A DNA stretch of 64,000 bases from Candidatus Chazhemtobacterium aquaticus (GCF_009936135.1 NZ_CP047901.1:695927-759926), one strand, 5' to 3'. Positions 2,999 to 13,582 are shown, counted from the stretch's first letter. Made by a program: numbers and translations. Notes: a model not told the origin generated them from the sequence alone.

Positions 2999-3937
2999 AT
3001 GGACCACCAACTTGACTATCTCCAGAAACAAATTGATCAACTTGATCAGCAAATTGCCGATAACCAAAAACTTCTCCAAGACCCCACCCTCAAGGATCTG
3101 GCCTCAACTGAAATAACATCTCTAACTGAACAAAAGCAGTCTTTACTCCAAGCTCTAACAGAGCTAAAAAATAGTCTTAATCAAAAACAAAACTCCCCCA
3201 CCTCAAACTATGACAACAGTCCCGCCACCATTGAAATTAAAGGCGCCGCTGGTGGAGATGAGGCCAAAATCTTTGCCCAAGATCTCCAAGAAATGTACAC
3301 TCGTTTTGCCAACTCCTTAGGCTTCAAAGTCGAATCCATTGACGACGGTATCATCAAGATCTCCGGTAAAGCCAACCCTCCTTGGAAATTAGGCCCTTAC
3401 GCCACCTTTAAACACGAGGCAGGTGTTCATCGAGTTCAACGTGTTCCCAAAACCGAGTCCCAAGGCCGTATCCACACCTCTACCGCTACCGTCGCCGTTT
3501 TACCCCAAATCAAACCATCAGAGGTTGTCATCAAGGAGTCCGATCTAGAATGGCAATTTAGCCGAGCTGGCGGCCCAGGCGGCCAGAATGTCAACAAAGT
3601 CAGTACAGCTGTTAGACTAACCTACAAACCAACCGGAGAAGTCATCTCAGTCCGTGAAGAACGTTACCAACAGCGCAACCGCGACATTGCCCTAGAACTT
3701 CTTCGTCAACGACTCTGGCAAAGAGAACAAGACGAAAAACAAAAACAGCTTGAAACCACCAGATCCCAAGCCGTTGGTTCCGGTCAAAGAGCTGAAAAGA
3801 TAAGAACCTACAACTTCCCCCAAAACCGAGTTACTGATCACCGTCTCAATCAATCCTGGCACGATCTTGATCTAGTCATCCAAGGCAAACTCGACAAAAT
3901 CATCACCACCCTGCACCAACAACCACTCGAGTCGTAA
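2999..3937 (+). CDS. prfA: peptide chain release factor 1
   Basis: GGQ motif (GPGGQNVNK) and a PxT-type tripeptide (PKT); [15 protein letters not shown] block. Confidence 0.8.
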
Positions 3938-3985
3938 CTACCTCACTCATTCCCATTCCCTTACTTATCTCCTTCTTTTTTTCTT

Positions 3986-5158
3986 CTATTGATCAACCTG
4001 TTCCTTTAGTATTACCGCAAACTCCCTCATCTCACCCTCTCTCCACAGTTTCACACTTACCTGATCTCCTACCTTCTTGGTATTAATCACATTAGCCAAT
4101 CCTCCCCTAATCTCCCCCACCCTTTGTCCATCTACCTCGGTGATGATATCGCCAGGCTTAATTCCAGCTTCATCAGCACTTGAACCAGCCATCACGTCAA
4201 TTACATAAGCACCCTCAGTCACCTCATTAAGAATCGCTGTATCCTTACTAACCATTCTGTAACTCACCCCCAGCATTGGTCGACTAAATCTACCCGTCGC
4301 CTCAAAATTCTCCAAGCTTTCTCTAACTACGTTAATAGGCAGAGCAAAACCAATATTCTCACCGCTACTTGATACTGCCACATTTACACCAATCACCTGA
4401 CCCGCTGAGTTAAGCAACGGGCCACCAGAATTACCTGGGTTAATTGCCGCATCCGTCTGAATCACATTATCCAACTGTTCAAAGTCACTAAAACCATCTC
4501 CTGCCACAATTCCTCTGCCCAATCCAGACACCACACCAGTTGTCACTGTGTGTCTAAACTCACCCAAAGCCGTACCAATCGCAATCACAAACTGACCCAC
4601 CTTAAGCGAATCAGAATCACCCAACTCCAAGGTCTTCAGCTTATCCCCACCGGCAATTTGCAAAATAGCCAAGTCATTAATCGGATCACGATAAATCTTC
4701 TCCACCACATACTCTTCATCGTTGTAATCAATCACCTTGTAACTAGCCTGCGTGTCCGATACCACATGCTTGTTTGTCACCACCATTCCCCCTTCAACCA
4801 CGAAACCAGAGCCAATATCCTGCTCAATCACCTCAGTCTTACCACTATCCAACCCAAATCCAAAAAAACCAAATGGTGACTCTATTGGCTCTATTACCCG
4901 CTGCTCTCGCTCTACGGCTACTGTCACCACACCCACCGATGCCTTATCAGCCACATCAATTACCACTCCCTCCTCATTTAAGATCTTCTGTGTTACCAAG
5001 TTACTCTTCTCTGGCAAATGAAACCCACCTATACCCTCCCCAAGTAAATAATCCAAAGGCTTGATCACAAACACCCGATCAGCCACTGCTCCGCCAATGG
5101 CGCTAAACAACACCAATACCGAAACTGATAAACCCATTAAAAAAGACTTCATCTTCAC
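3986..5158 (-). CDS. HtrA/DegP-family serine protease with PDZ domain
   Basis: GNSGGPLLN catalytic-serine motif, signal/TM N-terminus, C-terminal PDZ-like region. Confidence 0.85.
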   Translation of the reverse strand: MKMKSFLMGLSVSVLVLFSAIGGAVADRVFVIKPLDYLLGEGIGGFHLPEKSNLVTQKILNEEGVVIDVADKASVGVVTVAVEREQRVIEPIESPFGFFGFGLDSGKTEVIEQDIGSGFVVEGGMVVTNKHVVSDTQASYKVIDYNDEEYVVEKIYRDPINDLAILQIAGGDKLKTLELGDSDSLKVGQFVIAIGTALGEFRHTVTTGVVSGLGRGIVAGDGFSDFEQLDNVIQTDAAINPGNSGGPLLNSAGQVIGVNVAVSSSGENIGFALPINVVRESLENFEATGRFSRPMLGVSYRMVSKDTAILNEVTEGAYVIDVMAGSSADEAGIKPGDIITEVDGQRVGEIRGGLANVINTKKVGDQVSVKLWREGEMREFAVILKEQVDQ

Positions 5159-5189
5159 TCCTTCATTAAATCTCTATCTGCCACAAATT

Positions 5190-6488
5190 TCAACCCTTAA
5201 GCACCTCAACCGCTTTAATAAGCTGCTCATCTACCTCCTCCTCACCTTCGGGTTGGAACACACTCTCAACCACTACATCAGGCTCAATTCCATCCAAATG
5301 AATATTATATCCACTTGGCAGTAACCATTTAGCTACAGTTACGTGCAAACCAGCTCCGCCAGGTAACTCCTGAGCCTCTTGCACTGTACCCTTACCAAAA
5401 GTGTGTTCACCAACTAGTTTTACCTTCAACTGGTCTCTTAAAGCTCCCGCCAAAATCTCACTGGCTGACGCTGAACCTCTGTTAACCAACACCACCAACG
5501 GCTCACCAATCAGCTTGCCTCTTCGACTCACACTATATTTCTCTGTTCTAAACTTACCCTGTTGTTGGACCACCACCCCAGATGATATAAACTCACTGGC
5601 CAAATCAATCGCTCCTTGTAAGTATCCCCCGGGATTATCTCTCACATCAACAACTACACCGCCCAGATTTGGCTTAGCCGATATCTCTCTTACTGCCTCT
5701 TCCCATTCCTCCAACGTCTTATCTCCAAATCTAACCACTCGCAGATGGGCAAATCTACCATTCTCATCTACCCTACCCTGATCATTCACGAAAGCCAACT
5801 CAACAGAAGGCACCACAATTGTGTCTCTAATTAATGTTACTTCTCGACTATCCACATCTCCCTCTGTATACAGTGTCAAAGTTATCGGTTTACCCTTTTC
5901 TCCCCGTATCGTCTGCACCGCCTCAGGCAAACTCATCCCATCTGTATCTATATCAATTCCCTGCTCCTCATCCTTAATATGCAGTATCAAATCACCCGCC
6001 TTTACTCCAGCTTTCTGTGCTGGTTGATCAGGTAAAGGCGCCATTACAGCTAAAGTTTTTTCAACATATCCAAGTTGAATTCCCACCCCTGCAAACTCAC
6101 CAGCCAAATCTTCCTTTGTCTGAGTATTCTCTTCTGGTGGCAAAAACACAGTATAAGGATCATCCAAGGCTGCCGTCATTCCCTTAATTGATCCATAAAC
6201 CATCTCCTGAGCATCTATTTTTTCGCTCTCCAAATAGCCTTGCTCAAGCCGCTCCCACACCTCCCAGAACAAATCAAAGTCTACCTGGCTTTTATCACCA
6301 GCCTTACCTATCACCGCCTCAAGTACCGACCCTCCTTCGTATGCCCTCGACTCCCCTGCTCTTACCCCCAACTGATATCCTCCAATACCTCCAAATGCTA
6401 GCAACAACAAAGCCACCAACAAAGCTCTCACTCTCATAAGGTTAGATGATGTTTCTTTAGAAGGTTTTTCCATAAGACAATTCCTCAT
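5190..6488 (-). CDS. S41 carboxyl-terminal processing peptidase
   Basis: VVDVRDNPGGYL (DxRxNxGG) tail-specific protease motif; PDZ region; N-terminal TM. Confidence 0.8.
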   Translation of the reverse strand: MRNCLMEKPSKETSSNLMRVRALLVALLLLAFGGIGGYQLGVRAGESRAYEGGSVLEAVIGKAGDKSQVDFDLFWEVWERLEQGYLESEKIDAQEMVYGSIKGMTAALDDPYTVFLPPEENTQTKEDLAGEFAGVGIQLGYVEKTLAVMAPLPDQPAQKAGVKAGDLILHIKDEEQGIDIDTDGMSLPEAVQTIRGEKGKPITLTLYTEGDVDSREVTLIRDTIVVPSVELAFVNDQGRVDENGRFAHLRVVRFGDKTLEEWEEAVREISAKPNLGGVVVDVRDNPGGYLQGAIDLASEFISSGVVVQQQGKFRTEKYSVSRRGKLIGEPLVVLVNRGSASASEILAGALRDQLKVKLVGEHTFGKGTVQEAQELPGGAGLHVTVAKWLLPSGYNIHLDGIEPDVVVESVFQPEGEEEVDEQLIKAVEVLKG

Positions 6489-6525
6489 TGTACGTAAACT
6501 CTAAAAACCAAACAACCCCAACCAT

Positions 6526-6912
6526 CTATTCCTCCACATCCCGCCTCTGCAACACAACTCCTCCATCTCCCCACATAAACTCAACCTCAGCAAAACCACC
6601 TGGATATACAAAGTTAAACTTACCTCCAGGGCCCAAATCCATAGTAATCTCCCTATCTAGCATATACGTTAATCTCACTACCTCCTCACTACTATTAACA
6701 AACAACACGTCCTGGCCAGCACTCACCCTCACTGGTACCGCGATTTCATCAGTCACTGCCACATCTATTTCTCCCACCGCCTCAATATCCACCACTGATT
6801 GTTGCGTTGGCACACCACTCTCCTCCTTTACCTTCTCAACACTTGGTACTCCACCAATCTGGCAACCAGACAAAAACACTCCCAACACAATCAATACCAT
6901 CAAATTCCTCAT
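6526..6912 (-). CDS. putative lipoprotein
   Basis: Signal peptide followed by a lipobox (LSGC). Confidence 0.45.
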   Translation of the reverse strand: MRNLMVLIVLGVFLSGCQIGGVPSVEKVKEESGVPTQQSVVDIEAVGEIDVAVTDEIAVPVRVSAGQDVLFVNSSEEVVRLTYMLDREITMDLGPGGKFNFVYPGGFAEVEFMWGDGGVVLQRRDVEE

Positions 6913-7178
6913 ATACCCAATCTATCATCTTCAACAACTCGATACTAGAGTTTATTCCAGTTATCTCTAGACACACATTTAGACGATACGAGAAAAACTC
7001 ACCTCACCGATCCGCAATACCACCAAAAAACCTCGTCGAGCATTGAGCATAGACGAGGCGTGAATACCAACATTGTATTACACAACACAAAATCCGTCAA
7101 TATCTTATAGGACAACAAAGAGGGTCTTTCCAATCAAGAAACGATACGAAGCGTTACAATAAACATACCCAGACAACG

Positions 7179-7823
7179 ATGAGCATTCGAAACAGAATCA
7201 GAAAAACCAAACATCTACGCAACCGCCATCTTATCTGCGTCCTCGAGAACCCAAACGACATCAAAAATGTCGCTACTGTAATCAGAAACCTTTCAGCTTT
7301 CGGCGTAGAAAAACTATATATCATCAGTGACAAAAAAGGGGTACCCTACAACCTAGAATCATCAAGGAAAAATAAATATCTTACTAGACTCAGCGTTGGT
7401 GCAAACAAATGGATATTCATCAAGCGTTTCACCACCACTGACGAATGTGCTCTTCACCTAAAAAAGAATCTATACACCAACGCTATCACCTCACCTCATC
7501 AAAAAGATGCCAATAACATCAATCTCTATGAGGGCACATTTACTCAAAAAAGGCTGGCAGTTTGGTTCGGTAACGAATCACACGGGATCTCAAAAAAGGC
7601 GATCAAGCATGCAGATATGTGTATTCAAGTTCCCATGAGAGGCGTAGTCGAAAGCCTAAACCTGGCTACTAGTACAGGGATTATCTTAAGCTTTATCAGC
7701 TATCAGCGACTAAAATTTATCTTCACACATAGCCAAAACCGCTTCAAACCTCAAGGTTTCGCCAAACTAATTACTCGTTCCTGGCACAATTTTTTAAATT
7801 GGCCCCACGATAACATTGCCTAA
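7179..7823 (+). CDS. SpoU/TrmH-family RNA 2'-O-methyltransferase
   Basis: LICVLENPNDIKNV and VWFGNESHGIS...VPMRGVVESLNLATSTGI motifs of the SPOUT methylase family. Confidence 0.65.
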   Translation: MSIRNRIRKTKHLRNRHLICVLENPNDIKNVATVIRNLSAFGVEKLYIISDKKGVPYNLESSRKNKYLTRLSVGANKWIFIKRFTTTDECALHLKKNLYTNAITSPHQKDANNINLYEGTFTQKRLAVWFGNESHGISKKAIKHADMCIQVPMRGVVESLNLATSTGIILSFISYQRLKFIFTHSQNRFKPQGFAKLITRSWHNFLNWPHDNIA

Positions 7824-7914
7824 CCACTACAGGTTTATACTAACACCCCCCTATTTGCTACAATCTAACCAAGCCCATTAGACAAAGGCACCCACATTAA
7901 AAAGGAGGTTGTCA

Positions 7915-8091
7915 TGCCCGACTCCAAGAATCGCCAGGCCAATCGAAAGGCCAGAAACGCTGGTAAAGAAGCTGGCTTGACCAATGAGCAACAAAGACAG
8001 CTTCACGAAGAGTTAGGAAAAATCCCCAACAAAGACGATCTCCCCTATCGTGAAATCGTCGAAATCGCTAGGGATATCAAGGCTAAGTAGC
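7915..8091 (+). CDS. small basic hypothetical protein (58 aa; missed by the 60-aa ORF track)
   Basis: Strong SD AAAGGAGG 5 nt upstream of ATG; MPDSKNRQANRKARNAGKEAGL... Confidence 0.5.
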
Positions 8092-8565
8092 CACCACCAG
8101 AAAATGTCTAATGGGCTACTACCTATGAAAAACAGGTCAAACATCCTCCAGCTGGCCGTAGGCAAAAAATGTTTTAGAGCATCCAGAAGCATTGGCTCAT
8201 GTCTACTTCTTGAGTTCGGCAAACAAATTCCATATCTTAATCACAAGAACCAAAAAAGGACAAAAGGAGAATATGGACTACTCATAGAAATGGGAGAGTG
8301 GATACTTTCTAAGCAAGATGCACAAATCCTCTCCTCTGAAAGTGACATTCAAAAAATCGACACAAACATCCACATTCTTGAAGACAAAGCCATCACCAAC
8401 ATCTCTCTTAATAAAAAGGGTGATCTAGAAATTTCTTTTGACACAGCTTACTCCTTACAAATCCCATTTAACTCAAGCGAGACAGACCTTTGGATCTTCT
8501 TTACCCCTTCCGTATCCTACTGGCTTGATCAGCGAGGACGTTGGCAGCAGGAAGAAAGAAAATAG
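8050..8565 (+). CDS. hypothetical protein (start uncertain; likely begins at an internal Met)
   Basis: Open frame of 171 aa overlapping the small ORF; no recognisable motifs. Confidence 0.3.
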   Translation: MKSSKSLGISRLSSHHQKMSNGLLPMKNRSNILQLAVGKKCFRASRSIGSCLLLEFGKQIPYLNHKNQKRTKGEYGLLIEMGEWILSKQDAQILSSESDIQKIDTNIHILEDKAITNISLNKKGDLEISFDTAYSLQIPFNSSETDLWIFFTPSVSYWLDQRGRWQQEERK

Positions 8566-8858
8566 ATACACCAAACATAGTCAGCCTATATATCCATAAC
8601 TACACCGCGGTGGTATATACTCATATTATGCCCTTAAACAAAAACGATCTCAGGCTAGTTCGTCAAGTAGTCAATGAGGTAATCGAAAAAATATACAAAA
8701 ACCTACCCACCAAAAACGAATTCTTCAATTCCATGGATCAGCTCATCACCGAGCTGAAAGCCAATCGTCAAGAACAAACCTTCATCGTTCACAGACTGAC
8801 CAACCACGAAAACCGAATCCAAAAAGTCGAAAAACACCTCTCACTTTCTACATCCTAA
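8541..8858 (+). CDS. hypothetical protein
   Basis: ORF only; likely start at MPLNKNDL. Confidence 0.35.
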   Translation: MAAGRKKIDTPNIVSLYIHNYTAVVYTHIMPLNKNDLRLVRQVVNEVIEKIYKNLPTKNEFFNSMDQLITELKANRQEQTFIVHRLTNHENRIQKVEKHLSLSTS

Positions 8859-8921
8859 TCACAAGCGATAGCCTCTTTCCCAACACCCAATCCACTGTTA
8901 CACCAGATTGTTTCCACCACA

Positions 8922-9071
8922 CTATCCCTCCACTTCCTGCCACCTCGTTATTGGCAATCTTACTCCATCAAAAGCTTCAATTACAAAGTCAGGCCTGAAG
9001 ATAAATAACTCACTTGGAGCTGTATTATCCACGTGTATAAATCGCGATACATTTCGGAATCTTCTTAACAA
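8922..9071 (-). pseudogene. C-terminal remnant (about 49 codons) of a paralog of the Cys-rich secreted protein gene at 10731-12449
   Basis: Minus-strand translation gives ...NTAPSELFIFRPDFVIEAFDGVRLPITRWQEVEG*, identical to the C-terminus of the 572-aa protein; an in-frame stop sits immediately upstream at 9072-9074. Confidence 0.7.
8936..9026. repeat. 91-bp direct repeat copy 1 (2 mismatches versus 10745-10835)
   Basis: cctgccacctcgttattggcaatcttactccatcaaaagc[t/c]tcaattacaaagtcaggcc[t/g]gaagataaataactcacttggagctgtatt. Confidence 0.9.
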
Positions 9072-10135
9072 TTAAAGAAGATTTAAAATGCCCAGTGACT
9101 ACCCTCATCTTAGATATTCATTTGATCGAAAGACTTGTCTGACATATCGTCGGGTAATGAAAACACTAGCCAGTTCACTTACCTTTGATACTTCTGATGT
9201 AGCTCGCTTCCGGCTCCATGTTCTGGAGCACTACTACAAGTATGGTCTTGTTCCAACCCTGGATGTCTTTGGGGTCAAGAAGAGTACTCTGTACGACTGG
9301 AAGAAGCGCTTTGAAGTCTCTGGCAAGAAACTCAACAGTCTGGTACCTGTCTCCACCAAACCAAAAGAACTCAGGAGAATGAACACAGACTGGAGACTAG
9401 TGGAGTTGATCAAGACCATGAGAAAAGAATATGGAAACGTTGGTGCCAATATACTAAAACCCTTTGTAGATGCTTTGGCGACAGACCTAAATATCCCCAC
9501 CATTAGCAAGACCACCATCACTAAGATCGTTAAGATACGAAGATTAACTTTTGAGACCAAAGTCAAGCTCAAAAAGAAGAGTAAACAACCACGGTTGCGA
9601 ACCAAAAGGTCTCCTAAAGTCACTTCTGCAGGATACGTTCAACTGGATTGTATTACCCTTTACATTAATCGCGAAAAACATTTGTTTGTGTGCTGTATTG
9701 ATGTCTTTACTAAGTTTGCTTTAGTGAGACGAGTTAAGTCCTTGTCGTCTCAATCAGCCAAACAAGTCTTGGTGACTTTTGAACAACTAACCAGTCACTC
9801 TGTCCACACTGTGCAAACAGACAATGGTAGTGAGTTTCTTGGAGTGTTTGACAGATATCTCGAAGACCAAGGTATCAAACACATCTTTACTTACCCCAGG
9901 TCTCCCAGAATCAATGGAGTGGTGGAGAGACTCAACAGAACTGTCCAAAAAGAGTTCATTAAAAGAAGTGATGAGATTTACTACAATACCAAAGCCTTTG
10001 ATGAAAAGCTGACAAAATGGTTACATTGGTACAATTACCAAAGACCACACTACGCACTTAAATATTTATCACCCGTTCAATTCATTAACACTCAGATTCC
10101 GAAAAGTGGGTGATCTATACACCACGATCCCCAAA
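9031..10135 (+). mobile_element. IS481-like insertion sequence (ends approximate)
   Basis: Single DDE transposase ORF; imperfect inverted ends around ..cacgtgtata.. (left) and ..tatacaccacg.. (right). Confidence 0.5.
9088..10113 (+). CDS. DDE transposase, rve integrase-core, IS481-like
   Basis: QLDCITLY...TDNGSEF...NGVVER catalytic triad context and HWYNYQRPHYAL..SP tail. Confidence 0.75.
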   Translation: MPSDYPHLRYSFDRKTCLTYRRVMKTLASSLTFDTSDVARFRLHVLEHYYKYGLVPTLDVFGVKKSTLYDWKKRFEVSGKKLNSLVPVSTKPKELRRMNTDWRLVELIKTMRKEYGNVGANILKPFVDALATDLNIPTISKTTITKIVKIRRLTFETKVKLKKKSKQPRLRTKRSPKVTSAGYVQLDCITLYINREKHLFVCCIDVFTKFALVRRVKSLSSQSAKQVLVTFEQLTSHSVHTVQTDNGSEFLGVFDRYLEDQGIKHIFTYPRSPRINGVVERLNRTVQKEFIKRSDEIYYNTKAFDEKLTKWLHWYNYQRPHYALKYLSPVQFINTQIPKSG

Positions 10136-10160
10136 ATTCAAAAATGTGTATAATCAAAGC

Positions 10161-10466
10161 ATGCCAAGACAAAGAATCCAATTCAACCTCCCTGTATCTA
10201 TCCTCAAAGAAGGTAAAGTTTTTGTCGCTTATTCACCCGCAATTGATATTTCCACAGTCGGCGAAACATTTGAAGAGGTACAACAGCGATTTGAGGAAGC
10301 CGCAAACATTTTTTTCGAGGAAACGATCGAACACCAAACTTTCGAAGAAGCTTTACTCGAATTAGGATGGCAGAAAGAGAACAAGCGTCTCGTACCCCCC
10401 ATCGTCATATCAAACCAAACAAAACTATTCTCCTTGAGTCACGACGCACCCACACCACATGCCTAG
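10161..10466 (+). CDS. hicB: HicB-family antitoxin (UPF0150/RNase H-like fold)
   Basis: FNLPVSILKEGKVFVAYSPAIDISTVGETFEEVQQRFEEA matches the HicB N-terminal domain; the frame is also open from GTG at 10110, overlapping the transposase stop. Confidence 0.6.
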   Translation: MPRQRIQFNLPVSILKEGKVFVAYSPAIDISTVGETFEEVQQRFEEAANIFFEETIEHQTFEEALLELGWQKENKRLVPPIVISNQTKLFSLSHDAPTPHA

Positions 10467-10689
10467 TATCACCCCCATTCACTGGAAAAAGTTTGAAAAA
10501 TTTTTAATTTACGTGGGCTGCGAATTCAAAAGGCAAAAGGGAGATCACCGTGTATACTGGAGATCAGGCCTAATAAGACCAATCATTCTCCCAACATACA
10601 AAAGTTTACCTGTATTCATCATCAGAAACAATCTCAGAACACTCGGCATTGACCATAATGATTACCTAGAAATACTAAAAACCATCTAG
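10459..10689 (+). CDS. hicA: HicA-family mRNA interferase toxin
   Basis: 76 aa; KKFEKFLIYVGCEFKRQKGDHRVYW...PIILPTYKSLPVFIIRNNLRTLGI matches the HicA/YcfA fold; 8-nt overlap with hicB. Confidence 0.65.
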   Translation: MPSITPIHWKKFEKFLIYVGCEFKRQKGDHRVYWRSGLIRPIILPTYKSLPVFIIRNNLRTLGIDHNDYLEILKTI

Positions 10690-10730
10690 CCACAATCCCT
10701 TTCCACCACTTGCCAACACACTCCCTCCTC

Positions 10731-12449
10731 CTATCCTTCTACCTCCTGCCACCTCGTTATTGGCAATCTTACTCCATCAAAAGCCTCAATTACAAAGTCA
10801 GGCCGGAAGATAAATAACTCACTTGGAGCTGTATTGTTAGTTGTTCCCCTGTCTCTGTTAAGCGAGACACTGCTCCACCCCACAAAAGTACCCTCACCCA
10901 CAAACTGTTGCTCTGTATTCTCATCACCAGTCGAAGCAATGTTTAGGGCATCTGCCATATACACCCCTTCCACTTGAGTTACATTACTAGCAAAGGAAAT
11001 TGATCCTGAAGCAACAATGCCTAAATAAGATCCTGGCTCTACATTAATATTACTGGTAATGGTTACATTACCGTCATGGATGATAAATAGCTTCTCATCT
11101 ACTCCACCACCCCCCATATTCCAATCAGAATCAATAACAATATCGCCACTACTTAAATATATGGTTCCTTCCTCACTGGCTGTTGGTTTACCCGATCCAT
11201 TCCAGGACTCTCGAGGTAGTATCCCTGTTTGAGCATAATAGTAACCATAATCAAAGACTCTACCCTGATAGGAAGACAAAGCGCTTCTCCTGTTTCCACT
11301 AGCAATGGCATTAGGTGTCTCGTAAATACTTAATGACGGTGCAAATGGTAATGCCGAGTCTCCAGTGCTTGAGTTTCTAACCAAAGGTGTATATATCGTT
11401 CCTCCAATATCAACACTTCCACAAGACGCTTGATTCTCAGCTAATATACAGGTCGATGGGATCGTCACAGCAATTCCTTGTTCGCTGGACATATCTCCTC
11501 CCTGAGTTTGGAACCATCCGCCAAAGATTCGATACAATCCCACTCTTCTGGTTACCACCTGTCCCTGAGAGCTTAAAGATATTCCACTTAAAGACCCATC
11601 ACAAAGCAACTTAGGAGGGCTAGTTACCCACAGATTCTCATCCACTGTATATGTCAGGTTGTAGCTGTCGGGTACTGGCAAATTACCTCTTGTGTATGCA
11701 CCGTTAACGTTAGTGGTAGTGGTGTATGAGCTTGAGTGATTTACCTGAGCAGTCAAGGTAACCCCAGCCCCTTCAATCTTTGGTTGAGAGGCAACAGTTG
11801 AACAGTTACTCACCGTACTGGCATCAAAGAAAGTTCCCGAAATTGTTCCTCGACAGTTCTCCGTTTCTGACAGACTTACCCCCGCACAATCATTAGTTCC
11901 ACAGTTCTCACTACAAGTTCTAGTTCTAGTCCTAGTAAAAGTAGTTGGACTACAGGCACTCCAAGCACTCCAAGCAGAAATATATGGACCACATTCAGTA
12001 CAAGTAGTTCCTACAGGTTGCCAATACCAACCGCCACAGGGATCAGCATAGGTGTTGTAGCAAGTTTGAGTTCCACAACCTGAATTACAGAAATACCCAG
12101 TCTGACTATAGTTCCCTATATCACTACTCGAACAAGTACCACCACAACCATCACTCTGACCACAATATGGGGAAGAACAAGAAGGAGTACATGGGGGTGA
12201 ACATGAATAACAATTAAAAAACGTGGGACTACCACACGTCGCAGGATCACCTGGACATGCCCCGGGACAAGAATAATATTCCACACCCTGACAATATCCA
12301 GGCCCACAACTTCCATTTGTACACCACTGGGTATCGCTACGATACATACACGAAGTCCACTTCTCACAAACATCAGCAAATAAATCACTATATCCAAATA
12401 CAACAAAAACCAACACAAAAACAAATACAAACAACCCTTTTCTTATCAT
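10731..12449 (-). CDS. large Cys-rich secreted protein with TSP1-like WSxWS motif and beta-helix-like C-terminal half
   Basis: Signal peptide MIRKGLFVFVFVLVFVVFG; more than 50 Cys in the N-terminal 200 aa; WSAWSACSPTTFTRTRTRTC resembles a thrombospondin type-1 repeat; G/S/T/N-rich repeats in the C-terminal half. Confidence 0.6.
   Translation of the reverse strand: MIRKGLFVFVFVLVFVVFGYSDLFADVCEKWTSCMYRSDTQWCTNGSCGPGYCQGVEYYSCPGACPGDPATCGSPTFFNCYSCSPPCTPSCSSPYCGQSDGCGGTCSSSDIGNYSQTGYFCNSGCGTQTCYNTYADPCGGWYWQPVGTTCTECGPYISAWSAWSACSPTTFTRTRTRTCSENCGTNDCAGVSLSETENCRGTISGTFFDASTVSNCSTVASQPKIEGAGVTLTAQVNHSSSYTTTTNVNGAYTRGNLPVPDSYNLTYTVDENLWVTSPPKLLCDGSLSGISLSSQGQVVTRRVGLYRIFGGWFQTQGGDMSSEQGIAVTIPSTCILAENQASCGSVDIGGTIYTPLVRNSSTGDSALPFAPSLSIYETPNAIASGNRRSALSSYQGRVFDYGYYYAQTGILPRESWNGSGKPTASEEGTIYLSSGDIVIDSDWNMGGGGVDEKLFIIHDGNVTITSNINVEPGSYLGIVASGSISFASNVTQVEGVYMADALNIASTGDENTEQQFVGEGTFVGWSSVSLNRDRGTTNNTAPSELFIFRPDFVIEAFDGVRLPITRWQEVEG
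10745..10835. repeat. 91-bp direct repeat copy 2 (inside the 3' end of the 10731-12449 gene)
   Basis: See copy 1. Confidence 0.9.
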
Positions 12450-13012
12450 AAACCACTACCTCTATAAATCATGATAAAACTCTCAACTTCATTGGTCTCT
12501 ATATTGCTCAATATACCAACAATATCACCAAACCTAACAACATGCATCAGTTCTAAGAAACCAACCTCTTCTGGGTCAGACAAATAAGCACCAACTAACT
12601 GCTCATTAGTAGCCAATTGAGCATTTTCTTCAACCCAACCCTTGTCAACCATAACATTAATCTTCTCCATGCTCGTTTCTACTAATTCCTCCTTAAAGTA
12701 AATCAATGACTCAATATTCTTTGCAGTGTTGTAACAATCAACGCTTTTACCACTCCAAACTAATAAACAACCTACTCTTCCCAGAAACACTCCCGGAGAT
12801 GCTGTCGTCACACCACCGGTATCACTCGACTTGTACTCATGCAAAATCGTAGAAGCATCAGCCAAACTACTATTAACCAGATCCATATGAGATCGTAAAA
12901 AAACGTGACTTTTAATCAAAACCATTCCATACCAACCAACAATAGCCAAAAATATCAAACCCGATATCAACATCAACCAATTCACCCAATCTACCTTCTT
13001 ATTCTCTTCCAC
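12446..13012 (-). CDS. membrane-anchored hypothetical protein (co-transcribed with the Cys-rich protein)
   Basis: N-terminal TM helix; ATGA overlap with the downstream gene. Confidence 0.45.
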   Translation of the reverse strand: MEENKKVDWVNWLMLISGLIFLAIVGWYGMVLIKSHVFLRSHMDLVNSSLADASTILHEYKSSDTGGVTTASPGVFLGRVGCLLVWSGKSVDCYNTAKNIESLIYFKEELVETSMEKINVMVDKGWVEENAQLATNEQLVGAYLSDPEEVGFLELMHVVRFGDIVGILSNIETNEVESFIMIYRGSGL

Positions 13013-13065: not shown

Positions 13066-13437
13066 CTAACAAGGACATGTCTCGTTTAAACCCACTGTTG
13101 ATGAGAAATATCCCACACTCCAGATACCAGAGTCCAGATATATCTTCCTGATGAACTTAAATTTTTTCTTTAATCGAAAGCTGGTATATGTCTTAATCCT
13201 TTGAACCACCCTGGCTACTGATATATCTGGTGAAATCTCAATTTGTAGATGAATGTGATCACTACCCGTGTTGACAGCGTAAAGATACAGTGTGGGATAT
13301 TTCTTGATCAGTTGGTGTAACTCTAACAGCAACTCTTCCTTGACATACGACTTGATGTATTTCCGTCTGTATTTTGTTCCCCAGACTAGATGGTACTGGT
13401 GTTGATAGGCACAGTGATTAAGGCTTCTCTTTCTCAT
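13066..13437 (-). CDS. tnpA: IS200/IS605-family Y1 (HUH) transposase TnpA
   Basis: YHLVWGTKYRRK and HIHLQIEISPDISVARVVQRIK motifs. Confidence 0.8.
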   Translation of the reverse strand: MRKRSLNHCAYQHQYHLVWGTKYRRKYIKSYVKEELLLELHQLIKKYPTLYLYAVNTGSDHIHLQIEISPDISVARVVQRIKTYTSFRLKKKFKFIRKIYLDSGIWSVGYFSSTVGLNETCPC

Positions 13438-13443
13438 GCAGTC

Positions 13444-13469
13444 AGCATATCAGGTCAGCCTGATATGCT
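13444..13469. repeat. perfect 11-bp-stem hairpin next to the tnpA start (putative IS200 end hairpin)
   Basis: agcatatcagg-tcag-cctgatatgct; a second hairpin ccccgcat...atgcgggg lies at about 13477-13527. Confidence 0.55.
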
Positions 13470-13541
13470 CATTCATCCCCGCATTCCATACGCTAACTAC
13501 TCTCGTGTGACGCTATTCCATGCGGGGTTTCCTGTAAGGAA

Positions 13542-13582
13542 GAAAAAACCGCCAGTCGGGTATGGGTATACCAAAACTGGCG
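13542..13582 (-). terminator. rho-independent terminator of the 13622-13996 gene
   Basis: ccgccagt...actggcgg stem followed by a T6 run on the minus strand. Confidence 0.6.

What the first reader, a model, noticed from the sequence alone, without database searches (positions are those of the whole stretch)
8917..10840. An IS481-like transposase and a hicB-hicA pair are bracketed by a 91-bp near-identical duplication of the 3' end of the Cys-rich protein gene
Copies at 8936-9026 and 10745-10835 differ at only two positions. The upstream copy is an in-frame C-terminal remnant (...RLPITRWQEVEG*) of a paralog truncated by a stop at 9072-9074. Between the copies sit a DDE transposase and a hicBA module. 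IS481 elements make target-site duplications of only a few base pairs, so a 91-bp flank implies insertion into, or recombination within, a tandem paralog array with most of one paralog lost. The event looks recent because the copies are about 98% identical.
Basis: seen in the sequence. Interest (0 to 1): 0.6.

Follow-up and report, generated by a model that had tools for sequence, protein, structure and literature searches.

The report
Orphaned gene end beside inserted hicBA
A 105-base copy of the end of a variable cysteine-rich protein gene is the leftover original gene end, stranded when a toxin-antitoxin cassette and a replacement gene end were recombined into this uncultured (CPR) bacterium; the transposase next to it is a separate, ordinary insertion.

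Summary
The repeat is real. It is 105 nt long (8922-9026 and 10731-10835, 5 mismatches): the stop codon plus the last 34 codons of the 572-aa gene. There are only two copies in the window.

The IS481-like element did not cause it. Relatives in other contexts fix its ends at 9034-10121 (1088 bp, TGT...ACA termini). It is flanked by a perfect 5-bp target duplication, CCACG, so it is a simple insertion about 40 nt upstream of hicB.

The same layout occurs in every other contig examined that carries the transposase or hicB. The block 8888-10278 is almost invariant among them.

Four contigs (L029, L030, L072, L073) show an empty site: flank, one copy of the 105 nt, then the gene body. They have no IS, no hicBA and no second paralog. 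L030's gene end matches the remnant at 105 of 105 positions.

Every empty site and the remnant have T at 8934. Every hicBA-linked gene end has C there.

Best reading: a segment carrying hicBA and a different allele's gene end was imported. It joined by homology on the gene side and illegitimately at 9026/9027, orphaning the resident 3' end.

The tandem-paralog model is not supported. This is an ordinary genome-plasticity scar.

The parts
8922..9026 (-). Orphaned 3' fragment of the resident Cys-rich gene: the stop codon plus 34 codons. It is non-functional.
   Evidence: It is a 105-nt direct repeat of 10731-10835. It is 100% identical in the window and in L001-L010. It matches the intact gene end of empty-site contig L030 at 105 of 105 positions.
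9027..9028 (.). The two bases (AT) between the end of gene homology and the IS target duplication. They are the first bases of the imported DNA, so 9026/9027 is the illegitimate junction.
   Evidence: Alignment of the remnant with intact and empty-site copies. Empty sites continue GTTAGTTGTTCC where the window reads AT-CCACG.
9029..9033 (.). Left copy of the 5-bp target-site duplication, CCACG.
   Evidence: It is the same pentamer as 10122-10126. Relatives make 5-bp duplications: TTGGC in L016 and AAATT in L021.
9034..10121 (+). IS481-like insertion sequence, 1088 bp, with TGT...ACA termini. IRL is 9034-9062 and IRR is 10094-10121; 23 of 29 aligned positions match.
   Evidence: The ends were fixed by comparing copies of relatives P0055 and P0116 in different contexts. 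Many relatives lie on contigs of about 1.08-1.2 kb.
9088..10113 (+). Transposase ORF, 341 aa, DDE/rve.
   Evidence: Pfam rve_3 7.5e-17 and rve 9.4e-8. The best NCBIfam hit is the IS481 family at 162 bits, below the 224-bit cutoff; IS3 scores 105 bits. The exact protein is indexed in 35 blocks, and all 10 places shown are at this locus.
10122..10126 (.). Right copy of the 5-bp target-site duplication, CCACG.
10127..10160 (+). hicB upstream region, with TATAAT at 10149-10154, 6 nt before the ATG. Together with AT and CCACG it forms the pre-IS left edge of the imported cassette.
   Evidence: Read from the sequence. The same geometry is seen at four other insertion sites of related IS. The consensus promoter scan did not call a -35/-10 pair here.
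10161..10466 (+). hicB-like antitoxin gene, 101 aa.
   Evidence: It overlaps hicA by 8 nt. PF15919 gives weak hits in 14 of 17 family members, best E 2.5e-4, all below the cutoff. PDB 2yzt matches at E 0.007. JGI names homologues 'HicB family'.
10459..10689 (+). hicA toxin gene, 76 aa.
   Evidence: PF07927 HicA_toxin, 34.8 bits against a cutoff of 27.
10690..10730 (.). 41-nt spacer between hicA and the gene's stop codon. It came in with the imported segment and its source is unknown.
   Evidence: It shows no similarity to the native downstream flank 8859-8921. It is found only in occupied contigs.
10731..10835 (-). hicBA-linked copy of the repeat: the functional last 34 codons plus stop of the 572-aa gene.
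   Evidence: It carries C at repeat position 13 (10743), where the remnant and all empty sites have T.
10731..12449 (-). Intact 572-aa Cys-rich secreted protein gene. It is hypervariable between strains.
   Evidence: ORF. The family has 29 proteins, and the 30 genomic loci found are almost all titled Patescibacteria, with placeholder titles on the rest. Strains differ by 9-22% in this gene, against about 0.1-1.1% in the adjacent island 7020-8615 and roughly 1-5% further left at 3000-6800.

Best explanation
**Starting state (shown).** In the ancestral chromosome, the Cys-rich gene ended directly against the small 105-aa ORF at 8541-8858. L030 still shows this layout.

**The import (inferred).** A foreign or other-strain DNA segment was recombined in. 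It carried a hicB-hicA cassette lying just downstream of a homologous but different allele of the gene.
- On the gene side it joined by homologous recombination.
- On the hicB side it joined illegitimately, between bases 9026 and 9027.

This is a homology-facilitated illegitimate recombination, comparable to 'C-terminal displacement'. The imported gene end (10731-10835) now finishes the functional gene. The resident gene's last 105 nt (8922-9026) were left behind as a dead remnant on the far side of hicBA.

**The IS (shown).** The IS481-like element is a separate, simple transposition with the 5-bp duplication CCACG. It landed about 40 nt upstream of the hicB start. Its order relative to the import is unresolved.

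**Spread (inferred).** The block remnant + IS + hicBA then spread through the population by ordinary homologous recombination. The left flank and the conserved gene end served as the arms.

**Reversal (inferred).** The two repeats share uninterrupted identities of 41 and 30 nt. In principle they allow RecA-mediated loss of the block.
For: 1. **The IS has its own target duplication.** Its ends were defined from relatives in different contexts. The perfect pentamer CCACG flanks 9034-10121. The chance of a 5-nt match is 1 in 1024, so there was no IS-mediated deletion.
2. **Empty sites exist.**
   - L029 (1066 bp) came from the metagenome scan.
   - L030 (5153 bp) is from the MAG carrying contig CAYVAJ010000027.1.
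   - L072 (9,984 bp) and L073 (34,933 bp) came from a protein look-up.
   - Each has the flank, one copy of the 105 nt, and the gene body.
3. **The remnant matches a living allele.** L030's gene end equals the remnant at 105 of 105 positions.
4. **Divergence jumps at the junction.** L030 and occupied L002 differ at 5 of 1305 nt in the flank plus remnant. They differ at 54 of the next 700 nt after repeat position 105.
5. **A fixed marker separates the two kinds of gene end.** The remnant and all four empty sites have T at repeat position 13. All hicBA-linked ends, paralog L011 and homologue L015 have C.
6. **Homology stops exactly at the stop codon.** That is expected if the second copy came from a homologous gene in a different genomic context.
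7. **Diversity points to the direction of the event.** Block 8888-10278 has one SNP across the aligned occupied contigs. Their flanks differ by up to 6.8% and the gene by 9-22%. The empty sites fall into three haplotypes.
8. **hicBA wanders.** Relatives at about 74% nucleotide identity sit in unrelated contexts.
9. **The site is a variable islet in a distant relative.** There, an AbiEi/AbiEii pair occupies the same position.
10. **Precedent.** Orphaned 3' gene ends produced this way are described for T6SS and Rhs loci (PMC5361080).
Against: - **No donor was found.** I did not recover a Cys-rich homologue followed directly by hicBA without a remnant.
- **No IS-free occupied site was found**. 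The order of import and IS insertion is therefore unknown.
- **The junction is very close to the IS.** It lies only 7 nt from the IS end. That could be coincidence plus the IS's preference for about -40, or it could hint at IS involvement.
- **The right-hand crossover cannot be located**, because the gene is mosaic and hypervariable.
- **The empty sites could in principle be secondary deletions** between the repeats.
- **Natural competence or another DNA-uptake route is not shown** for this organism.
Confidence: 0.62

Rival explanations
1. Tandem paralogs followed by deletion. Two full paralogs once lay in tandem with hicBA between them. A later deletion removed all but the last 105 nt of the left paralog.
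For: Homology that stops exactly at the stop codon would also fit two paralogs. The genome does carry a second paralog elsewhere: P0004, 75% identical.
Against: - No syntenic contig of this species shows two adjacent copies. That covers the occupied contigs and four empty-site contigs. Three homologue loci checked for 3'-end duplicates (L011, L013, L015) have none. The 29 other-species loci (L031-L059) were not screened for adjacent second copies.
- The model needs two events where one suffices.
- The IS cannot have made the deletion, because its target duplication is intact.
- The remnant equals a living allele at the same locus (L030), not a distinct paralog.
Confidence: 0.12
2. Campbell-type or site-specific integration. 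A small circular molecule carrying hicBA and a copy of the gene's last 105 nt integrated by a single crossover in the gene end. The result would be attL/attR-like repeats.
For: Direct repeats bracket a short cassette of 611 nt once the IS is removed. Integrative elements commonly carry a replacement 3' end of their target gene; this is my own knowledge, not tested here.
Against: - There is no tyrosine or serine recombinase in or beside the block. The only enzyme is a DDE transposase with its own target duplication.
- A single crossover would make both repeats chimeric. Instead the remnant is 105 of 105 identical to one natural allele, L030.
- No 3'-end duplication was found beside homologues in L011, L013 or L015.
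Confidence: 0.1
3. Duplication made at the moment of insertion. The two copies began identical, for example by fill-in of ends staggered 105 nt apart or by template switching. The functional copy later diverged through allele exchange.
For: The gene is highly recombinogenic, so later replacement of the functional end is conceivable.
Against: - Every hicBA-linked end sampled differs from the remnant, by 5, 9 or 16 mismatches, and all carry C at position 13.
- The duplicated stretch begins exactly at the stop codon. Under this model that would be a coincidence.
- Reported IS481-family duplications are 2-15 bp (PMC10045372).
Confidence: 0.08
4. Assembly artefact. Either the occupied layout or the empty sites are mis-joins at the 105-nt repeat, or they arise from strain mixtures.
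For: Several contigs of about 1.8 kb break exactly at the repeats: L027, L064 and L065. L029 has coverage of only 1.3.
Against: - The occupied layout was recovered by different assemblers and archives (NCBI MAGs, JGI, ENA, Logan), in contigs of up to 107 kb.
- Empty sites were recovered in four contigs of up to 34.9 kb, falling into three haplotypes.
- The longest identical stretches between the copies are 41 and 30 nt. These are shorter than the k-mers usually used for final assembly graphs; that comparison is my inference.
Confidence: 0.03

Closest known systems
Homology-facilitated illegitimate recombination and 'C-terminal displacement' scars (Rhs and T6SS effector-immunity arrays; PMC5361080, PMC3240628)
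   Same: An incoming segment is anchored by homology in a conserved part of a variable gene and joined illegitimately at its other end. The 3' end of the old gene is left stranded downstream of the newly arrived small cassette.
   Different: - The conserved anchor here is the C-terminal coding end itself, not a conserved N-terminal body.
- The stranded piece is only 105 nt and carries no orphan immunity gene.
- The cargo is a hicBA pair on the opposite strand, not a toxin tip with its immunity gene.
- The mechanism is inferred from sequence only.
IS481-family insertion sequences
   Same: A single rve/DDE transposase ORF, a length of 1088 bp, imperfect inverted repeats of about 29 nt, TGT...ACA termini, and a short target duplication of 5 bp. 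The family makes 2-15 bp duplications, mostly 6 bp (PMC10045372).
   Different: - The transposase scores 162 bits against an NCBIfam cutoff of 224.
- The nearest relative is only 63% identical.
- It is single-copy and fixed at one site in this species.
- This element and its relatives sit 39-40 nt upstream of the start codon of a co-oriented gene in 5 of 5 contexts.
HicAB type II toxin-antitoxin modules
   Same: A HicA toxin domain scoring above the Pfam threshold, a small partner gene overlapping it by 8 nt, and a patchy, mobile distribution.
   Different: The gene order is hicB then hicA, whereas the E. coli prototype has hicA first (my own knowledge). The HicB-like partner gives only weak profile hits. 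No activity has been tested.
Integrative elements that duplicate the 3' end of their target gene (att repeats)
   Same: Direct repeats made of a gene's 3' end bracket the inserted DNA, and the gene stays intact.
   Different: There is no site-specific recombinase. The repeats are not identical (5-16 mismatches). The remnant equals one natural allele in full rather than being a crossover chimera.

Membership tests
IS481 family insertion sequence | A single DDE (rve-type) transposase that matches the family profile. | tested here: inconclusive
   Pfam rve_3 and rve both pass their cutoffs. NCBIfam NF033577 (IS481) is the best hit at 162 bits but falls below its 224-bit cutoff. IS3 is second at 105 bits.
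IS481 family insertion sequence | Terminal inverted repeats with TGT...ACA ends and a length of about 1-1.3 kb. | tested here: met
   IRL 9034-9062 and IRR 10094-10121 match at 23 of 29 positions. The ends read TGTATA...TATACA and the element is 1088 bp. The expected termini are taken from PMC10045372.
IS481 family insertion sequence | A short target-site duplication (2-15 bp). | tested here: met
   CCACG at 9029-9033 and 10122-10126. Relatives also make 5-bp duplications.
HicAB type II toxin-antitoxin | A HicA toxin domain. | tested here: met
   PF07927, 34.8 bits against a cutoff of 27, E 1.7e-8.
HicAB type II toxin-antitoxin | A HicB antitoxin encoded next to it in the same operon. | tested here: inconclusive
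   The adjacent gene overlaps hicA by 8 nt. PF15919 hits are below the cutoff (window protein E 0.068; 14 of 17 family members hit, best 2.5e-4). PDB 2yzt matches at E 0.007.
HicAB type II toxin-antitoxin | Toxin activity that is neutralised by the partner. | not testable with these tools
   This needs expression experiments.
Homology-facilitated illegitimate recombination / displacement scar | An abrupt junction between resident and imported DNA, with a stranded fragment of the replaced gene. | tested here: met
   The remnant equals the L030 allele at 105 of 105 positions. Divergence jumps from 5 of 1305 nt to 54 of 700 nt at the junction.
Homology-facilitated illegitimate recombination / displacement scar | An unoccupied ancestral site exists in the same population. 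| tested here: met
   L029, L030, L072 and L073.
Homology-facilitated illegitimate recombination / displacement scar | An identifiable donor arrangement, with the gene followed directly by hicBA. | tested here: not met
   It was not found among the loci fetched or in the viral contigs.
Site-specific integrative element (att duplication of a gene's 3' end) | A tyrosine or serine recombinase associated with the element. | tested here: not met
   The only enzyme between or beside the repeats is the DDE transposase, which has its own target duplication.
Tandem paralog array | Two adjacent full-length copies in some related genome. | tested here: not met
   The syntenic contigs of this species carry a single copy at this locus. 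L011, L013 and L015 have no 3'-end duplicate. The second paralog lies on another contig. The 29 other-species loci (L031-L059) were not screened for adjacent second copies.

The most novel reading that the evidence does not exclude
The hicBA cassette may not be a passive passenger. It could belong to a recurring 'allele-swap' mechanism. In this reading, the conserved C-terminal 34 codons of this CPR-specific, hypervariable Cys-rich surface protein family act as a landing pad for incoming alleles. The linked toxin-antitoxin pair then makes the newly acquired allele hard to lose. That would resemble Rhs/CDI C-terminal displacement, but acting on a conserved gene end in an episymbiotic bacterium.
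Probability: 0.08. Interest if true: 0.55.

Novelty: new member of a known kind. Interest (0 to 1): 0.27.

Why it matters
- **A cleanly reconstructed event in an uncultured lineage.** Both the occupied and the empty allele are sampled in a Microgenomates-group CPR bacterium. The event can therefore be read base by base. This shows that gene-end scars and toxin-antitoxin acquisition occur in these small genomes.
- **A cautionary example for annotation.** A transposase sitting between long direct repeats was not their cause.
- **No new mechanism or function.** The practical value is correct annotation: a pseudogene fragment, the IS boundaries and the true hicB start. It also flags the Cys-rich gene as a recombination hot spot.

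Tried and rejected
- **Exact-protein look-up of the 572-aa protein.** It is not on record.
- **IS-mediated adjacent deletion.** Considered, then rejected because of the perfect 5-bp duplication.
- **ISEcp1-like mobilisation of hicBA plus the gene end as one unit.** Considered, then rejected. The pentamer after 10835 is GTTAG, not CCACG, and the IS has its own right-hand duplication.
- **L029 as a product of excision between the repeats.** Its single copy switches type within the 41-nt identical stretch (Fisher p = 0.003 against L006). I dropped this as unnecessary once L072 and L073 showed the same pattern as a natural allele. It is not excluded.
- **Search for a donor or for IS-free hicBA.**
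  - The HicB look-ups returned only occupied sites that carry the IS.
  - HicB relatives L060 and L061 lie in unrelated contexts.
  - The viral scans gave nothing close.
- **3'-end duplications next to homologues L011, L013 and L015.** None found.
- **RNA genes and signals.** The tRNA and Rfam scans of the region were empty. The consensus promoter and terminator scan was uninformative.
- **AlphaFold2 model of the Cys-rich protein.** Mean pLDDT was 44, too poor for a fold search.
- **Genome scan with the wider alignment.** It failed for lack of a conserved stretch and was repeated with closer sequences.


Full report
**1. Observation**

The window has a direct repeat at 8922-9026 and 10731-10835. 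It is 105 nt long with 5 mismatches. A self-BLAST gives E = 1e-42 and finds no third copy. tblastn finds no other paralog in the 64 kb.

The repeat is exactly the stop codon plus the last 34 codons of the minus-strand 572-aa gene at 10731-12449. On the stop-codon side, similarity ends at the stop codon itself. On the other side it ends at 9026/10835.

**2. Anatomy of what lies between the copies**

- *Transposase.* The ORF at 9088-10113 has rve domains. Its best NCBIfam match is IS481, at 162 bits against a cutoff of 224.
- *Relatives.* It has hundreds of relatives. The nearest is 63% identical, and many lie on contigs of about 1.08-1.2 kb.
- *IS ends.* I compared copies of two relatives, P0055 and P0116, in different genomic contexts. 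The element ends 8 nt after the transposase stop (..TATACA) and begins TGT/TGA-ATA. It makes 5-bp target duplications: TTGGC in L016 and AAATT in L021.
- *The window element.* Transferred to the window, the IS is 9034-10121 (1088 bp). IRL is 9034-9062 and IRR is 10094-10121, matching at 23 of 29 positions. It is flanked by a perfect CCACG at 9029-9033 and 10122-10126.
- *Consequence.* The IS is a simple insertion and cannot have deleted neighbouring DNA.
- *hicBA lies outside the IS.* The hicB-like gene runs 10161-10466; the GTG at 10110 lies inside the IS. hicA runs 10459-10689 and matches PF07927 above threshold. The hicB-like protein gives only weak HicB signals.
- *Pre-IS layout.* With the IS removed, the two repeats bracket 611 nt that hold only hicBA. 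The junction reads ...GCTGTATT|AT CCACG ATCCCC...TATAAT-6 nt-ATG (hicB).

**3. Related genomes**

The exact transposase protein is indexed in 35 blocks, and 23 contigs were read. All ten places shown are this same locus. They come from NCBI MAGs (including GCA_002069875.1, Microgenomates group bacterium ADurb.Bin238), JGI, ENA and Logan assemblies.

All ten have the remnant, the IS, hicBA and the gene in the same order. Three patterns stand out.

- *The remnant is frozen.* It is 100% identical in all of them. The functional gene end differs from it by 5 mismatches in the window, 9 in most strains and 16 in L004.
- *The block is nearly invariant.* 8888-10278 carries one SNP across the aligned occupied contigs.
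- *The surroundings are not.* The left flank differs by up to 6.8% between strains. The Cys-rich gene differs by 9-22%, in mosaic blocks.

A second paralog exists (P0004, 623 aa, 75% identical). It lies on another contig, in a glycosyltransferase cluster.

In a distant relative (L013), the same intergenic position holds an AbiEi/AbiEii pair and methyltransferases. The position lies between the homologue's 3' end and the S41 peptidase. This site is therefore a variable islet.

**4. Empty sites**

Four contigs lack the insertion.

- L029 came from a metagenome scan with the left-flank sequence.
- L030 came from the genome scan. It is a 5153-bp contig of the MAG carrying CAYVAJ010000027.1.
- L072 (9,984 bp) and L073 (34,933 bp) came from a look-up of homologue P0001.

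Each has the left flank, one copy of the 105 nt, and then the gene body. None has the IS, hicBA or a second copy.

What they show:
- L030's gene end equals the remnant at 105 of 105 positions, including the T's at repeat positions 55, 61 and 75.
- L030 and occupied L002 differ at 5 of 1305 nt across the flank plus remnant. They differ at 54 of the next 700 nt.
- The remnant and all four empty sites have T at repeat position 13. Every hicBA-linked end, the paralog and homologue L015 have C.
- The empty sites form three haplotypes, while the occupied block is invariant. I infer that empty is the older state and occupied the derived, recently spread one.

**5. Mechanism**

*Shown.*
- The IS is an independent simple insertion.
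- The remnant is the resident gene's own former 3' end.
- A single-gene empty allele exists.
- The hicBA-linked end is a different allele.

*Inferred.* One import brought in hicBA together with a homologous gene end or allele. The right end recombined homologously, and the left end joined illegitimately at 9026/9027. This corresponds to homology-facilitated illegitimate recombination. That mechanism has been proposed for orphaned 3' ends in T6SS and Rhs loci (PMC5361080; PMC3240628).

Homology that stops exactly at the stop codon fits a donor gene in a different context. It is hard to explain by a staggered-cut duplication.

*Unresolved.*
- The donor was not found.
- No IS-free occupied allele was found, so the order of import and IS insertion is open.
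- The IS lies 7 nt from the junction. Related IS copies sit 39-40 nt upstream of a co-oriented gene's ATG in 5 of 5 contexts. That preference would by itself place the IS here.

**6. Rivals**

- *Tandem paralogs plus deletion.* This needs two events and an intermediate that was never seen.
- *Campbell or site-specific integration.* There is no recombinase, and it predicts chimeric repeats. The remnant instead equals one natural allele in full.
- *Duplication at the moment of insertion.* The fixed C/T difference at position 13 and the stop-codon boundary argue against it.
- *Assembly artefact.* Both states were recovered independently in long contigs.

**7. Comparison with known systems, novelty and verdict**

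All three components are ordinary: an IS481-like element, a hicBA pair, and a displacement scar. The combination is a new example of known kinds.

The Cys-rich protein family is small (29 proteins) and looks CPR-restricted: most of the 30 genomic loci are titled Patescibacteria, and the rest carry placeholder titles. Its function is unknown. The AlphaFold2 model was unusable.

Interest is low to moderate. The value lies in a clean reconstruction and correct annotation.

Noticed in passing
window 10114-10163; L016 2527-2590; L017 1068-1116; L021 2530-2577; L023 1948-1996: This IS and its relatives sit at a nearly fixed distance from the next gene in all five distinct contexts seen. The IS end lies 39-40 nt upstream of the ATG of a co-oriented gene: hicB, an NDK gene, an rpmG-like gene, a peptidyl-prolyl isomerase gene, and rpmF. 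In each case a TATAAT-like box lies 6-7 nt before the ATG. This suggests either targeting of the -35 region of leaderless-type promoters or strong selection on where insertions survive.
   Followed up: partly
L021-L024 (MAGs GCA_027342215.1, GCA_027424635.1, GCA_021784535.1): The flanks of the P0116 IS copies are swapped between contigs. L022's left flank and L023's right flank share the duplication CTTCT, while L021 has AAATT on both sides. This indicates either recombination between two IS copies or chimeric assembly through the repeat.
   Followed up: no
window 13079-13542: A 464-bp insertion is absent from L001-L003, L008 and L030. It holds an IS200-like Y1 transposase ORF (13066-13437, minus strand, NF033573 E 2e-26). 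The last codons of that ORF come from the flank. It also holds a GC-rich stretch of about 105 nt. This insertion is specific to the window strain.
   Followed up: partly
window 1-64000: The whole window has an extreme strand asymmetry. GC skew is -0.4 to -0.55 in most 1-kb bins, meaning C outnumbers G about three to one on the plus strand. It rises to about -0.04 over the IS (9001-10000).
   Followed up: no
window 10731-13012: The Cys-rich gene and the overlapping upstream 188-aa gene are hypervariable between strains of one species. They differ by 10-50% per 200 nt, in mosaic blocks. They lie next to an island at 6800-10600 that is almost invariant. The pattern suggests diversifying selection or frequent allele exchange on a secreted or surface protein pair.
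   Followed up: partly
window 7017-8615 versus L001 5477-5529: L001 (GCA_022705705.1) lacks 1.6 kb that holds the SpoU-family methylase gene and two small ORFs. This is a second insertion/deletion polymorphism in the same islet.
   Followed up: no
window 10714; L004 and L006 about 7634: L004 and L006 carry a 6-bp tandem duplication in the spacer between hicA and the gene end.
   Followed up: no
L031, L037-L041 and other loci: Many contigs that carry CPR-type homologues have record titles such as 'uncultured Pseudomonadales' or 'uncultured Gammaproteobacteria'. Their gene content and nearest relatives are Patescibacteria, so these titles look like placeholder mislabels.
   Followed up: no
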